Of a stretch of DNA of 64,000 bases, positions 44,131 to 47,199 are shown piece after piece. A program made the translations under genes and the position numbers. How positions within the stretch are numbered: the stretch's first letter is position 1; the number at the start of each line of letters is the position of its first letter. The notes beneath the pieces are model-generated. The model was given only the letters and a program-made list of their open reading frames with translations. It had not been told where the DNA came from and made no database searches. This DNA comes from Acidobacteriota bacterium (GTDB lineage: Bacteria > Acidobacteriota > UBA6911 > RPQK01 > JAJDTT01): contig CBDCJH010000002.1 in NCBI GenBank assembly GCA_965217775.1, positions 3,168,001 to 3,232,000 of the forward strand. Reading direction: 5' to 3'.

Positions 44131-45701
44131 CGTTGCGTCCCGCTACGTCGCGTGCCGGCGACTCTCAACACGGGCCTTTGAATAGCCTCACATTCCCCAT
44201 ACGGTCACCGTGGCCCCACCCGCCGTTTCGTCGCGGCGATAGATCTTGTCTTCCCATGACCTCCCCTCGGAGCGGTCGAAGATCACGAGGTGTCCCTCCG
44301 ATGCGGCGCAGCGTTCCATGTAGGCGCGCGTTTGCGCCAAGCCTTCGCGAAGCGTTGCATCGAGGCCCCGATGCAGCACTTTGCATTCGACGACCACCTT
44401 CTGCATCTGCCGGTCCGTTCCGGATTGCGCCTCGCTGGCGCGCCCTGCAACTGGTGACAGGATCAACAGATCCGTCCGCCTCCGGCCCAGGCCGTACTCG
44501 CGCTCGATCCGCCCGCCGCTGTTGACGATGCGCTGCAGGAACGCTTGCAACAAAAGTTGTGGGCCAGCCTCCTTGTACTGGAAGCGCTCCACCCAGTGCT
44601 CCGAGTGCTCCCGGAAGAACTCCTGGAACGCGGCCATCAGCTTGACGGACCGCAACGCCCCGTTCTCATCGACGTACCACGCCGGATCGTGATGGATCGA
44701 CATCTCCTGAGTGGTATAGGTGAGACCGCGCGGGATCACTTCGCGGTAGATGGGATTGGCGATGGCCACGGGGCCGGTTCGCGTCACCAGGCCCAGGTCG
44801 CGCACATACGCCAGATCGTCGGCTGGGATCGGGTCAACCGCGCCGGACCCCTTCAGCAGCGGCTCGACGACCCGGCGCACCCGCTCCTCCTGCAGCTTGT
44901 CGGTGAGCTGGTCCAGATGGGTCTCGCGACGCAGGATCAATTGCTCGCGCGCGTCCTGGATGGCGTCGCCGGTGATCTCCCGGCTACGGTCCCGGCCTTC
45001 CTTGTTGTCGAAACAGGTTTCGTAGGCCAGGGCGTTCACCAGCCAGGGCTGGCCCTGCGTCAACCTCCAGATCTCGTCCCGCCCCTCGTCCGTGAACACT
45101 TGGTCCGTCTCCCCGGTATGTTGTGCCAACAGGGACTCGACCTCGCGTGGCAAGAAATCTCCGAGCCGCAGGGATTCGGCCCGAATGTTGAATGCGCTGC
45201 CACCGGCGACGATGGCGTTTTCGGCCCTGGACCGAATTCGGTAGTCGCGCACGTCGCGAACGCCGCACAGAATCACGCTCTGGGGAAACCGCCGGGGGCG
45301 GTCCGGATAACCGGCCCGGAGCTGACGCAATACCGACAGCAGCGTGTCGCCCATCAGCGCATCGATCTCGTCGATCATGAGCACGAGCGGCTTGGCGTCG
45401 GCTTCGCTCCATCGGGCCAGCGTCTCCCCCAGCGCGTCGTTGGGGCCCGCTGTTGCTAGAATCCCCGGCCAAACTTCAGCCACGAACAGGTCGTCCAGCG
45501 CGTGGCGCGCCGCCCGCGCCAGGGCGCTGAGGATCGCTCGCACACCCTCACGGACATTTTCCCGGGCCGCCGGGCCGCCGGGCCGCCTTCGACGTTGACG
45601 TACACGCACCGGAACTCGCCGCCGAGGTTCAACTCGTCCCTCAGCGCCAGCAGTGCCGAAGTCTTGCCCGTCTGACGCGGCGCGCGCAGGACGAAGTATT
45701 T

Positions 45702-45801
45702 GGGGCTTATATACCTAAGTGCCATTGGCATACAGTTCTGGCACCACGCTTTCCCCAACGAGATACGTTCCGGTACCCAGGGCAAGAACCCCAGCCCTGA
45801 G
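45702..45801 (-). ncRNA. Predicted TnpB omegaRNA scaffold overlapping the tnpB 3' end and right TIR
   Basis: By-eye stems: CTCAGGGC/GCCCTGGG; GGTACC..ACG/CGT..GGTGCC; TGTATGCC/GGTATATA; loop GGGGTT complementary to terminal AGCCCC. Confidence 0.6.
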
Positions 45802-46890
45802 AATGTTCAGGGCGGCATTGTGGTCCCTGTCCATTCTAAGTCCGCAGGCCCTGCACCGGAAGGTTTCGCTCCGCCCTGGATCGTGGCGGGCGCCGCACCG
45901 GTGGCAGTCCTGCGATGTAAATGCGGGATTCACGTCTACGAACTTCCGACCGGCCCATTCTGCCTTGTACTGGATTTGATTCCGCAGAAGCCCCCAGGAT
46001 TGCGTCAGTATTTCTCGATTCAGCCCCTTCTTCTTCGAGCCCTTCGTTACCATCCCTTGGATGTTCAGCTTCTCCACAGCGATCAGACCGTGCTCACGAA
46101 TGATGCTGCTGGAGAGACGATGGCAGGCATTACGGTTTCGGACCGATTCCCGGTGACGGAGCCGAGATAGCTGTACGATCCGCTTCCGTCTGGTCTTGGA
46201 AATCTTCTTGCACCTGGAGACCTTTCTCTGCTGCTTTCGGATCCCCGCCCAGTCCCGTCTATTCCGTTCGATCCTCTCACCCGTGGACAGCACCGCTCGC
46301 TGGCGGACTCCCAGGTCGATCCCCACCGAAGACTCGCATTTCGGCAGCGGCAGCTTCTCCACCTCGTACGTCAGGTCCACGGACACCCGGTTCGGCTTGC
46401 GGACGATCCGCAACGCCTTCAACGGGCATCCGTTCGGCAACGGCCGGGACGGAAAGATCCGGATCGTCGGAAAGCCCTTGGGCCGGATGGCGTAGCCCCG
46501 AGCCCGCTTCTTCACCAGGGTCGCCTTGGGGTCGACGACGTCCATGGTCTCCATCCTCGCCAGGGGCCGGAACCGAGGATACCCCGGCTTCTCCCCCGCC
46601 TTGCATCGACGGAAGAACGCCTGGAAGGCCCGATCCAATCGAACCAGCATCCCACGCTCCGCCTTGACCGCCACTGACCCGAGCCCCTCCGGATCTTCCT
46701 TCCTCATGGAGGTCAACCCCTTCATCTGATCGTACAGGGTCACACCGCGCTGCTCGGACTCCCATGCCATCCTCCGTTCCTCCAGTGCCGCGTTGTACAG
46801 CCGATTCAGGATGGACCTCACCCAGTCCAACCGCCGGATTCCACCCTTGGACAGCTTGGCTCTGCACTGGATAGTTGCGTGGCCTTTCAT
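45715..46890 (-). CDS. tnpB: RNA-guided endonuclease TnpB
   Basis: LYNAALEER, RLDRAFQAFFRR..GEKPGYPRF, RuvC-I VGIDLG, RuvC-II IAVEKL, YKAEWAG, TSQDCHRCG..CRACG zinc finger, RuvC-III DRDHNAALNI. Confidence 0.96.
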   Translation of the reverse strand: MKGHATIQCRAKLSKGGIRRLDWVRSILNRLYNAALEERRMAWESEQRGVTLYDQMKGLTSMRKEDPEGLGSVAVKAERGMLVRLDRAFQAFFRRCKAGEKPGYPRFRPLARMETMDVVDPKATLVKKRARGYAIRPKGFPTIRIFPSRPLPNGCPLKALRIVRKPNRVSVDLTYEVEKLPLPKCESSVGIDLGVRQRAVLSTGERIERNRRDWAGIRKQQRKVSRCKKISKTRRKRIVQLSRLRHRESVRNRNACHRLSSSIIREHGLIAVEKLNIQGMVTKGSKKKGLNREILTQSWGLLRNQIQYKAEWAGRKFVDVNPAFTSQDCHRCGARHDPGRSETFRCRACGLRMDRDHNAALNILRAGVLALGTGTYLVGESVVPELYANGT

Positions 46891-47199
46891 GGTAGGACTT
46901 GTAAACCATCAGCCTGAATTCTCGGCACTTAGGCATATAATCCCCAAGTATTTCCACTGCCGGATGAGCATCAGGAAATCGTCGACGTCGAGCCGCTCCA
47001 GGGGCGGGATACTGTAGTGCATTTCCGGGTTCACCGGGCCGGCGGTGTTGAAGAAACGCATAGTTTGAGTATCGCACGTTGTCTCGGGTCACGCAGTGCA
47101 CCGAGAGGAGGGGCGTCCTCGGAACAAGACGCGGCATCGCCTCAAGACGCTGTAGACAGCAGGGTCGGAAGAACTGAGACGTGAACCGGTACGAGCAGT

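What the first reader, a model, noticed from the sequence alone, without database searches (positions are those of the whole stretch)
46946..46965. TAM puzzle created by pairing TnpB with a TSD-making transposase
In IS605/IS607 the TnpB TAM equals the transposase target motif. Here the bases 5' of the predicted target in the empty allele are ..CGGCAGTGG, outside the duplicated 8-mer. The occupied left junction offers the same upstream bases plus an 8-nt seed match. Inference: either the partner transposase prefers a motif just outside the TSD, or this TnpB has a very relaxed TAM and avoids self because the right flank is preceded by CCCC. A relaxed-TAM compact nuclease would be of tool interest.
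Basis: inference. Interest (0 to 1): 0.7.

Follow-up and report, generated by a model that had tools for sequence, protein, structure and literature searches.

The report
TnpB riding an IS1595 transposon
A small RNA-guided nuclease gene (TnpB) sits in a cut-down IS1595-type jumping element, and almost all such copies lie beside the same two-base G|A junction, which may be the nuclease's short recognition motif.

Summary
Window 45702-46945 (minus strand) is a 1244-bp element. It has 22-bp imperfect inverted ends, an 8-bp target duplication (AAATACTT) and one gene, an intact 391-aa TnpB. It splits an ATPase gene, and the unsplit allele exists in a sister genome.

The partner is an IS1595-family DDE insertion sequence of 1762 bp in the same genome. 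Its ends match the element's ends at 24 of 26 bases, and it also makes 8-bp duplications.

The TAM puzzle has a data-based lead. 26 of 27 independent TnpB/ωRNA-element insertions have G just before the left duplication and A as its first base. Only 7 of 26 insertions of transposase-carrying IS1595 elements show this. So the motif is tied to TnpB/ωRNA orientation, not to the transposase.

A covariation-supported ωRNA ends in a pseudoknot that uses the element's CCCC tip. The invariant flanking A probably plays the role of the unpaired −1A of the ISDra2 ωRNA. That would make the TAM a short 5'-(G)GA.

Cleavage activity, the TAM and how the filter works are inferred, not shown.

Verdict: a new variant of the known DDE-associated TnpB elements, worth a TAM assay.

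The parts
46954..46958 (-). Left flank bases -5..-1 (minus strand CAGTG-G; -1 = G at 46954). Candidate TAM positions in the empty allele.
   Evidence: Across 22 script-scored insertions, -1 is G in 22/22 and -2 is G in 14/22, with purines enriched at -5..-3.
46946..46953 (-). Left copy of the 8-bp target-site duplication, AAATACTT.
   Evidence: (D7).
46924..46945 (-). Left-end terminal inverted repeat, GGGGATTATATGCCTAAGTGCC.
   Evidence: I1. Ends of the 12 copies are aligned. Compared with the IS1595 ends.
45715..46890 (-). tnpB, 391 aa, intact. RuvC D192/E273/D356 and a CxxC..CxxC zinc finger.
   Evidence: Pfam. Alignment to ISDra2 TnpB 8bf8/8exa/8h1j, E 5e-32. The catalytic triad of ISDra2 was read. 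dN/dS is 0.21-0.49 against 8 other intact copies.
45702..45816 (-). ωRNA scaffold core (115 nt). It overlaps the 3' end of tnpB and the right-end repeat.
   Evidence: Alignments A1 and A2, RNAalifold, model R1. R1 hit at G000:C2:3213702-3213816, 110.7 bits. Pair counts.
45787..45792 (-). Hairpin-loop GGGGTT, the 5' strand of the predicted pseudoknot.
   Evidence: A2 columns 28-33 pair with columns 123-128. 95% of cells are paired and 2 pairs change on both sides.
45702..45723 (-). Right-end terminal inverted repeat, GGCACTTAGGTATATAAGCCCC. It contains the tnpB stop codon. Its last 6 nt (45702-45707) form the 3' strand of the pseudoknot.
45694..45701 (-). Right copy of the duplication. Its first base (A, 45701) is the invariant flank base, proposed to act as the ωRNA -1 linker.
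   Evidence: The right end is followed by A in 29 of 31 ωRNA hits and in 12 of 12 G000 main copies. The ISDra2 -1A is described.
45685..45700 (-). Predicted 16-nt guide template (TSD positions 2-8 plus 9 nt of right flank). The start and length are inferred.
   Evidence: By analogy with the ISDra2 116-nt scaffold plus 16-nt guide. Matches the G006 empty allele at 15 of 16 positions.
46946..47061 (-). 5' part of the interrupted ATPase gene (MRFFNTAGP...IRQWKYF).
   Evidence: The uninterrupted 537-aa orthologue is in G006.
44188..45701 (-). 3' part of the interrupted ATPase gene. It is also frameshifted by an 8-bp tandem duplication near 45566-45589.
   Evidence: weak AAA_22; D1.

Best explanation
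The locus is a non-autonomous IS1595-family element: inverted ends, an 8-bp duplication and no transposase. Its only cargo is an active-looking TnpB and its ωRNA. An IS1595 DDE transposase encoded elsewhere in the genome moves it (inferred).

The transposase dictates that the element must end in ...CCCC. The ωRNA has adapted by using that tip as the 3' strand of its guide-proximal pseudoknot.

The unpaired linker nucleotide that precedes the guide in ISDra2 (-1A) is supplied here by the first base of the target duplication (inferred). The guide is then TSD bases 2-8 plus about 9 bases of right flank.

In the empty allele the bases read as the TAM would be the end of the left flank plus that A, roughly 5'-(R)(G)GA. 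At the occupied right junction the same position reads CCCCA, so the element does not target itself. At the left junction only 7-8 nt match the guide.

Only insertions that happen to land in the orientation giving G|A at the left junction give TnpB a usable ωRNA and TAM. Such copies are the ones kept or spread, by TnpB cutting vacant alleles followed by recombinational repair. That would explain why essentially all surviving copies obey the rule while the transposase-carrying IS1595 copies do not.

Shown here: the anatomy, the partner, the junction rule with its controls, the ωRNA covariation, the intact catalytic residues and the existence of the empty allele.

Inferred: cleavage activity, the identity of the TAM, the -1A role, and the retention/homing filter.
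For: (1) Anatomy and duplication.

(2) Partner. G000 has five copies of a 1762-bp IS with perfect ends GGGGATTATATACGAAAGTGCCGAAA, matching the main TnpB-element left end at 24 of 26 bases. They have 8-bp TSDs and a 334-aa DDE_Tnp_IS1595 + Zn_ribbon_IS1595 protein. None of the 143 tnpB-side loci screened (the G000 and same-genus element loci plus 80 loci of mostly distant TnpB relatives) has a transposase next to tnpB.

(3) Junction rule. 22 of 22 script-scored TnpB-element insertions have G(-1)/A(+1), against 5 of 16 for the 1762-bp IS (Fisher 3.6e-6). Four more elements found with the ωRNA model fit the rule, including a 257-bp MITE that keeps the ωRNA but has no tnpB. One decayed copy does not fit. 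The total is 26 of 27, against 7 of 26 for all transposase-carrying IS1595 controls (Fisher 9e-8). The rule holds in at least five subfamilies at 72-96% nt identity, including ones with near-symmetric ends.

(4) ωRNA. 98.8% of cells are paired, against 86% in shuffles and 33-49% when the partners are slid. 11 of 26 pairs show compensatory changes. In the pseudoknot helix, GGGG/CCCC covaries to GGGA/UCCC in L092.

(5) The ISDra2 structure paper describes a pseudoknot at -6..-2 with an unpaired -1A before the guide, and a 116-nt scaffold.

(6) A precedent exists for taking flank or TSD bases into the scaffold, in IS607 TnpB and in Fanzors.

(7) TnpB integrity. D192/E273/D356 align to ISDra2 D191/E278/D361. 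10 of 12 copies have an intact ORF, and dN/dS is 0.21-0.49.

(8) The residues aligned to the ISDra2 TAM-contact residues all differ. R79, aligned to Q80, is invariant in 10 of 10 subfamily proteins.

(9) The empty allele is present in G006 and in RNA-library contigs from a sponge-labelled community.
Against: No biochemical or expression-end data exist. The RNA evidence is contigs only, and these cannot show RNA ends, strand or level, and may contain DNA.

The control elements are young (98-100% identical copies) whereas the TnpB copies are older (92-96%). Age or a different mobilising transposase could therefore contribute to the difference.

For the G005 subfamily, no transposase-carrying IS with matching ends was found. 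All 8 hits of its end motif in G005 are the ends of 4 TnpB elements.

One insertion (L291/L094) has A at -1.

Three copies lack a duplication and were left out of the count. One (G000 C2:1188023) still has G|A at its left junction. The left junctions of the other two (L090, L093) read G|T and A|G.

A classic cut-and-paste DDE excision already leaves a double-strand break, so the selective benefit of TnpB here is not obvious; the review read raises this point.

Alignment of the TAM-contact region to ISDra2 is of low similarity.

n = 27 from one genus, so the insertions are independent events but the elements are related.
Confidence: 0.55

Rival explanations
1. The G|A junction is a target preference of the transposase that actually moves the TnpB elements. 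This could be an IS1595 variant other than the controls, or an asymmetric transpososome caused by different subterminal sequences. It would have nothing to do with TnpB recognition.
For: G|A is the phosphodiester that the right-end 3'-OH would attack (DDE chemistry, established knowledge plus inference). Some IS1595 controls also use G|A: 7 of 26 at the left and 4 of 26 mirrored at the right. The cognate transposase of several TnpB subfamilies was not found. Two different subfamilies hit the same position of an orthologous locus, which suggests strong site selectivity.
Against: Three different transposase-carrying IS1595 lineages give 5/16, 0/6 and 2/4. The rule is one-sided: TnpB elements show the mirror T|C at the right in only 5 of 22. 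It holds in subfamilies whose two ends are near-identical. It also follows ωRNA orientation in a MITE that has no tnpB.
Confidence: 0.2
2. TnpB has no TAM or a very relaxed one. The invariant A is needed only as an ωRNA scaffold nucleotide. The G at -1 comes from another cause, such as site hot spots, local purine-rich DNA structure or sampling.
For: Only 2-3 positions carry information and no 4-5-nt motif is seen upstream. The A follows the right end in 41 of 43 ωRNA hits, whether or not a left partner is found.
Against: G at -1 occurs in 26 of 27 against 9 of 26 in controls: 7/16 for the 1762-bp IS, 0/6 for the G002 IS and 2/4 for the other relatives. -1 is present only in the empty allele and the left junction, which is where a TAM is read. 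All TnpBs in the papers read here use a TAM.
Confidence: 0.13
3. Fanzor-like arrangement. The whole 8-nt duplication is part of the ωRNA scaffold, the guide starts after it, and the TAM lies inside the AT-rich duplication.
For: In Fanzor1 and Fanzor2*, the TIR and TSD are part of the reRNA scaffold and the RNA extends about 15 nt beyond the TSD. T at TSD position 7 occurs in 17 of 22, against 3 of 16 in the control as oriented (Fisher 7e-4).
Against: The duplication varies at positions 2-8, so it cannot be a fixed scaffold. A TAM lying wholly inside the duplication would also be present at the occupied right junction, so the element would target itself. The position-7 signal disappears if the control is flipped (9 of 16, p 0.29). 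This model does not explain G at -1.
Confidence: 0.07
4. The TnpB is a decaying or domesticated passenger, with no nuclease function and no TAM constraint.
For: 2 of 12 copies are disrupted. Several truncated or internally deleted copies exist.
Against: The catalytic D/E/D and the zinc finger are intact. dN/dS is below 0.5. The ωRNA shows compensatory changes, even inside coding sequence and in a MITE. There are multiple copies at different sites.
Confidence: 0.05

Closest known systems
DDE-transposase-associated TnpB branches (DDE-1 to DDE-6) of Altae-Tran et al. 2023, PNAS (PMC10691335)
   Same: TnpB inside elements with symmetrical inverted terminal repeats. Solo TnpB is flanked by ends nearly identical to those of transposase-bearing elements. 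The tnpB 3' end is close to the transposon end (passages read).
   Different: The passages I read name IS630. A 2026 review names ISL2, IS630 and IS1031. IS1595 is not named in those passages, and the supplements that define the branches could not be opened. No TAM or junction rule for such elements appears in the passages read.
ISDra2 TnpB of IS200/IS605 (PDB 8bf8, 8exa, 8h1j)
   Same: Best solved relative (E 5e-32, aligned over residues 31-376). Same RuvC triad and CCCC zinc finger. An ωRNA of about 115 nt with a guide-proximal pseudoknot. The nearest relatives without inverted ends (34-35% identity) sit beside a Y1 TnpA.
   Different: ISDra2 has no inverted ends and no duplication, is moved by Y1 TnpA, and its TAM TTGAT equals the TnpA target. 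Here there are inverted ends, an 8-bp duplication, and an IS1595 DDE partner acting in trans. All seven residues aligned to the TAM contacts differ. The candidate TAM is G-rich and short.
Fanzor1 / Fanzor2* in eukaryotic cut-and-paste transposons, and IS607 TnpB (Yoon et al. 2023 NAR, PMC10711439)
   Same: A TnpB-type nuclease coexisting with a transposase that imposes end and flank sequences. The TIR is part of the reRNA scaffold, and a flank or TSD nucleotide is taken into the scaffold.
   Different: Those TSDs are treated as fixed scaffold parts. Here the duplication is 8 bp and variable, and only its first base is fixed. This case is prokaryotic and a pseudoknot is retained (Fanzor1 lacks it).
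IS1595 family insertion sequences (ISXO2-like DDE transposase)
   Same: Inverted ends starting GGGG, an 8-bp AT-rich duplication, and ends matching a resident IS1595 at 24 of 26 bases. That 8 bp is typical of the family is recalled from ISfinder, not checked here.
   Different: There is no transposase in the element, and the cargo is TnpB plus ωRNA.

Membership tests
TnpB (OMEGA RNA-guided nuclease) | OrfB_IS605 / RuvC core and TNB zinc-finger domain | tested here: met
   Pfam PF01385 6.3e-17 and PF07282 2.1e-25, both above the curated cut-offs. Full-length match to ISDra2 TnpB.
TnpB (OMEGA RNA-guided nuclease) | RuvC catalytic D-E-D present | tested here: met
   D192, E273 and D356 align with ISDra2 D191, E278 and D361. 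They are conserved in 10 of 10 subfamily proteins.
TnpB (OMEGA RNA-guided nuclease) | ωRNA overlapping the tnpB 3' end and reaching the right end, with a conserved structure and pseudoknot | tested here: met
   11 of 26 pairs are compensatory and 98.8% of cells are paired, against 33-49% in slid controls. Model R1 finds 43 hits in 6 of 9 genomes of the genus. This is computational only.
TnpB (OMEGA RNA-guided nuclease) | TAM-dependent, RNA-guided DNA cleavage | not testable with these tools
   The only indirect signal is the G|A junction rule, 26 of 27.
IS200/IS605 family element (including the IS1341 tnpB-only group) | No terminal inverted repeats and no target duplication; inserts 3' of a fixed 4-5-nt motif | tested here: not met
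   22-bp inverted ends and variable 8-bp duplications in 10 of 12 copies. The family definition was read.
IS200/IS605 family element (including the IS1341 tnpB-only group) | Y1 HUH TnpA in cis or in the genome | tested here: inconclusive
   There is no other ORF in the element. I did not search the whole genome for Y1_Tnp. Relatives at 34-35% identity do have it upstream.
IS1595 family (non-autonomous derivative) | Ends matching a DDE_Tnp_IS1595-encoding IS, and the same duplication length | tested here: met
   24 of 26 end bases are identical to the 1762-bp IS. Both make 8-bp duplications.
IS1595 family (non-autonomous derivative) | Mobilisation by the IS1595 transposase | not testable with these tools
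   Inferred from the ends, the duplications and co-residence in G000 and G006. No cognate IS was found for the G005 subfamily.
Fanzor-type TSD-in-scaffold arrangement | The duplication is a constant part of the guide-RNA scaffold | tested here: not met
   Positions 2-8 of the duplication vary among copies. Only position 1 is fixed.

The most novel reading that the evidence does not exclude
TAM recognition by TnpB acts at the moment of integration, not only afterwards. TnpB-ωRNA, held at the right end whose tip it uses as a pseudoknot strand, docks on a 5'-GGA site. It presents the adjacent G|A phosphodiester to the IS1595 transpososome. This would be a minimal, natural coupling of a TnpB to a DDE transposase, a proto-CAST in which a TAM rather than a guide sets the site and orientation of insertion.
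Probability: 0.08. Interest if true: 0.9.

Novelty: new variant of a known kind. Interest (0 to 1): 0.62.

Why it matters
TnpB is understood mainly in IS605 and IS607, where excision is scarless and the TAM equals the transposase's target. How it works with a DDE transposase that duplicates a variable 8-bp target has hardly been described for prokaryotes.

This locus, with 26 sister insertions and matched controls, gives three things:
- a concrete and testable answer (a target-supplied linker A, a pseudoknot built from the TIR tip, and a short G-containing TAM);
- natural evidence that TnpB/ωRNA constraints shape where a DDE-mobilised element is found;
- a compact 391-aa nuclease whose candidate TAM (GGA-like) differs from the T-rich TAMs of characterised TnpBs, which is of interest for genome-editing tools.

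It also offers a system to test whether TnpB helps cut-and-paste elements at all.

Tried and rejected
1. More insertion sites from public metagenome contigs: the best relative had 39% identity and there were no close copies. Genome contigs gave close copies only in the same genus. A DNA search of 40 relatives hit 6 of 8 genomes of the genus and 0 of 32 outside it.

2. Inverted ends in distant TnpB relatives: a seed-based scan of 57 loci found convincing TIR plus TSD only in the close clade and in L159. The wider TnpB clade is therefore not TIR-type.

3. A composite element with both tnpB and the IS1595 transposase: none among the 143 loci screened, and none in G000.

4. A cognate transposase-carrying IS for the G005 subfamily ends: not found.

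5. RNA-library contigs (4 runs of one study) cover tnpB and cross the right end into other flanks. Contigs cannot show RNA ends, strand or level, and the libraries may hold DNA. I do not use them as proof of expression or of guide length.

6. T at TSD position 7 (17 of 22) looked like a second signal, but it depends on how the control is oriented. It is left unexplained.

7. Shine-Dalgarno or promoter explanations for the purine-rich left flank: rejected, because the window's site lies inside a coding sequence.

9. Supplements of the papers are closed. The SI tables of PMC10691335 that define the DDE branches may already list IS1595-linked TnpBs.

10. I did not fold the protein or model a complex. 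No call would have tested DNA recognition.

Full report
OBSERVATION. On the minus strand the finding's coordinates read ...ATCCGGCAGTGG AAATACTT, followed by GGGGATTATATGCCTAAGTGCC. About 1.24 kb downstream the sequence ...GGCACTTAGGTATATAAGCCCC is followed again by AAATACTT (D7 and I1). The segment 45702-46945 is therefore a 1244-bp element with 22-bp imperfect inverted ends and an 8-bp direct repeat of flank. Its only long ORF (45715-46890, minus strand, 391 aa) matches Pfam OrfB_IS605 and Cas12f1-like_TNB above their cut-offs.

THE 8-MER IS A TARGET DUPLICATION AND THE EMPTY ALLELE IS REAL. The window's genome (G000, 6.43 Mb, 2 contigs) has 12 full-length copies at 92-96% identity. Ten have perfect 8-bp flanking repeats that differ between copies, one has one mismatch, and one has unrelated flanks. 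The element splits a gene. Sister genome G006 has that gene uninterrupted (537 aa) with a single copy of the 8-mer...cggcagtgg AAATACTT cgtcctgc.... Six further orthologues or paralogues in five genomes of the genus are also uninterrupted. Contigs from 2 of 4 RNA-library runs (one study, labelled sponge metagenome) join 45693 to 46946 with 8 shared letters. This is the empty allele, and it co-exists in such communities.

THE PARTNER. Scanning G000 for the end sequence found, besides the TnpB elements, five copies of a 1762-bp IS. Its ends are perfect inverted repeats, GGGGATTATATACGAAAGTGCCGAAA, matching the main TnpB-element left end at 24 of 26 bases. They have 8-bp duplications and a 334-aa protein with DDE_Tnp_IS1595 (1.8e-38) and Zn_ribbon_IS1595 domains. 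Two more distant IS1595 relatives are also present. None of the 143 tnpB-side loci screened, and no place in G000, has this transposase next to tnpB. The TnpB element is thus a non-autonomous IS1595-family derivative, presumably moved in trans. That last step is inferred.

THE JUNCTION RULE. I oriented every element by tnpB/ωRNA and scored insertions whose two flanking 8-mers agree (at most 1 mismatch). 22 of 22 had G at -1 and A at TSD position 1. G at -2 occurred in 14 of 22 (binomial p 0.002 against 31% G), and purines were enriched at -5..-3. The right side was unremarkable: the mirror T|C occurred in 5 of 22.

I then built a covariance model of the ωRNA (R1). It found 43 hits in 6 of 9 genomes of the genus. 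Four more elements with both ends turned up, all obeying the rule:
- internally deleted copies of 649, 846 and 1102 bp;
- a 257-bp MITE that keeps the ωRNA but has no tnpB.

One decayed copy (L291/L094) reads GGGA|A. The total is 26 of 27.

Three copies without a duplication were left out. One (G000 C2:1188023) still has G|A at its left junction. The left junctions of the other two (L090, L093) read G|T and A|G.

The first base after the right end is A in 29 of 31 hits and in 12 of 12 main copies of G000.

The rule holds in at least five subfamilies (72-96% nt identity) with different inner end sequences, some with near-identical left and right ends.

CONTROLS. Transposase-carrying IS1595 elements were oriented by their transposase gene.

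| Control set | Insertions | G\|A at left | T\|C at right |
|---|---|---|---|
| 1762-bp IS (G000, G002, G006) | 16, all with perfect AT-rich 8-bp duplications | 5/16 | 2/16 |
| 2677-bp relative in G002 | 6 | 0/6 | 1/6 |
| Four other relatives | 4 | 2/4 | 1/4 |
| All controls | 26 | 7/26 | 4/26 |

Against 26 of 27 for the TnpB elements, Fisher p is 9e-8. The binomial p against the per-junction control rate (11 of 52) is 6e-17. So the IS1595 transposases like AT-rich 8-mers, but the oriented G|A is specific to elements carrying the ωRNA.

Caveats: the controls are younger copies, the mobilising transposase of some subfamilies is unknown, and all data come from one genus.

THE ωRNA. The last 115 nt or so of ten diverged elements and the MITE align with clear compensatory changes, even inside the tnpB coding region. 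I counted a structure of three helices plus a pseudoknot, in which the hairpin-1 loop GGGGUU pairs with the element's last six bases ...AAGCCCC.
- 98.8% of cells are paired, against 86.3% in shuffles and 33-49% when partners are slid.
- 11 of 26 pairs change on both sides.
- In the pseudoknot, one lineage (L092) changed both inverted-repeat tips to GGGA/TCCC and the loop to GGGA.

The ISDra2 structure paper describes a 116-nt scaffold. Its pseudoknot uses nucleotides -6..-2 paired with -102..-106, and an unpaired -1A is sandwiched before the 16-nt guide. Here the pseudoknot strand ends exactly at the transposon tip, which the DDE transposase requires to be CCCC. The invariant flanking A is therefore the natural candidate for the -1 linker.

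Yoon et al. report the same kind of solution elsewhere: the right-flank nucleotide is taken into the scaffold in IS607 TnpBs, and the TIR/TSD in Fanzors.

THE PROTEIN. D192, E273 and D356 align with the ISDra2 catalytic D191, E278 and D361, and the four zinc-finger cysteines are present. 10 of 12 G000 copies keep the 391-aa ORF. dN/dS between the window copy and eight other intact copies is 0.21-0.49.

The residues aligned to the ISDra2 TAM contacts (Y52, S56, K76, F77, Q80, T123, N124) are L, M, V, K, R, P, K. None of the seven is conserved, which fits a different TAM. R79 (aligned to Q80) is invariant in 10 of 10 subfamily proteins. Reading an arginine as a guanine reader is speculation on a low-similarity alignment.

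MECHANISM PROPOSED. The guide would be TSD bases 2-8 plus about 9 nt of right flank. In the empty allele, the TAM would be the end of the left flank plus the A, roughly 5'-(R)(G)GA. The right junction reads CCCCA and is spared. The left junction offers the TAM but only 7-8 matching bases.

An IS1595 insertion produces a functional ωRNA and TAM only when it lands with G|A on the left, which happens at about one junction in five in the controls. Such copies can then be defended or spread by TnpB cutting vacant alleles. This is the homing role described for IS605 TnpB in an abstract seen and discussed in the passages. Other copies are transient. This explains the near-total rule, but it is inference.

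The review read notes that DDE excision already leaves a break, so the benefit of TnpB is unclear. The alternative that recognition acts during integration cannot be excluded. One observation hints at strong site selectivity: two different subfamilies hit the same position of an orthologous locus in G004 and G006, with different duplications.

COMPARISON WITH THE LITERATURE. Altae-Tran et al. 2023 report six DDE-associated TnpB branches with inverted terminal repeats, and solo TnpBs with the same ends as transposase-bearing elements (passages). A 2026 review names ISL2, IS630 and IS1031.

A full-text search for TnpB with IS1595 gave 9 papers. For 8 I saw only the listing, and for PMC12507524 one passage. 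None deals with such an element. Searches also found none. Supplements were closed and may list it.

The association is therefore a new variant of a known kind. The junction rule, the pseudoknot built from the TIR tip and the target-supplied linker are, as far as these searches go, not described.

The nearest TnpBs outside the clade (at most 39% identity) lack inverted ends, and two of them sit next to a Y1 TnpA. The clade therefore looks like a recent capture of an IS605-type TnpB by IS1595 ends in one Acidobacteriota genus; the lineage is named from the record titles of relatives.

LIMITS. There are no biochemical data. n = 27 from nine genomes of one genus. The RNA evidence is contigs only. 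The control elements differ in age. Guide start, guide length and the TAM are inferred by analogy with ISDra2.

Noticed in passing
window 45558-45589 (within the ATPase gene, minus strand): Relative to the G006 orthologue there is an extra 8-bp tandem copy in a GGCGGCCC-type repeat. It shifts the frame of the already interrupted ATPase gene, so the gene is decaying as a pseudogene.
   Followed up: partly
L253/L278 (G004:C1:4815243-4815499): A 257-bp MITE with the same type of inverted ends and an 8-bp duplication. It carries the ωRNA core (R1 105.9 bits) but no tnpB, so it is a standalone, mobilisable ωRNA. In ωRNA orientation it also obeys the G|A rule.
   Followed up: partly
L273 (G004:C1:5789066) and L265 (G006:C1:1410204): Two different TnpB-element subfamilies are inserted at the same position of an orthologous locus. 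The flanks are about 86-92% identical (110 of 120 left, 109 of 127 right), and the duplications differ (AAACGAAA vs AAACCCAA). This means independent hits on one site, hinting at strong site selectivity.
   Followed up: partly
L159 (Methanomassiliicoccaceae MAG contig, 1435-bp element): A distant TnpB (29% identity) flanked by 24-bp inverted ends starting GGCTCTTCGG and a perfect 8-bp duplication CCTTTTAA. This is apparently another, independent capture of TnpB by a DDE-type element. From memory the ends look ISL3-like; I did not check this.
   Followed up: no
L019:1544-1927 (inside the 1762-bp IS1595; G000:C2:836929-838690): The autonomous IS carries a second 127-aa ORF overlapping the transposase stop. 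It has no Pfam match. About 330 bp of further non-coding sequence lie before the right end.
   Followed up: no
L309-L314 (G002, six identical copies): A 2677-bp IS1595 relative (transposase 58% identical) with about 1.6 kb of extra sequence beyond the transposase. This may be passenger genes; it was not annotated.
   Followed up: no
TSD position 7 of TnpB elements: T occurs in 17 of 22 TnpB-element duplications, against A in 13 of 16 for the 1762-bp IS as oriented by its transposase. The contrast vanishes if the control is flipped. Unexplained.
   Followed up: partly
G005 subfamily ends (e.g. L095:1435-1458): The inverted ends of this subfamily contain a perfect TTGACA hexamer at positions 19-24. 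This could be a -35 box for tnpB at the left end and for outward transcription at the right end.
   Followed up: no
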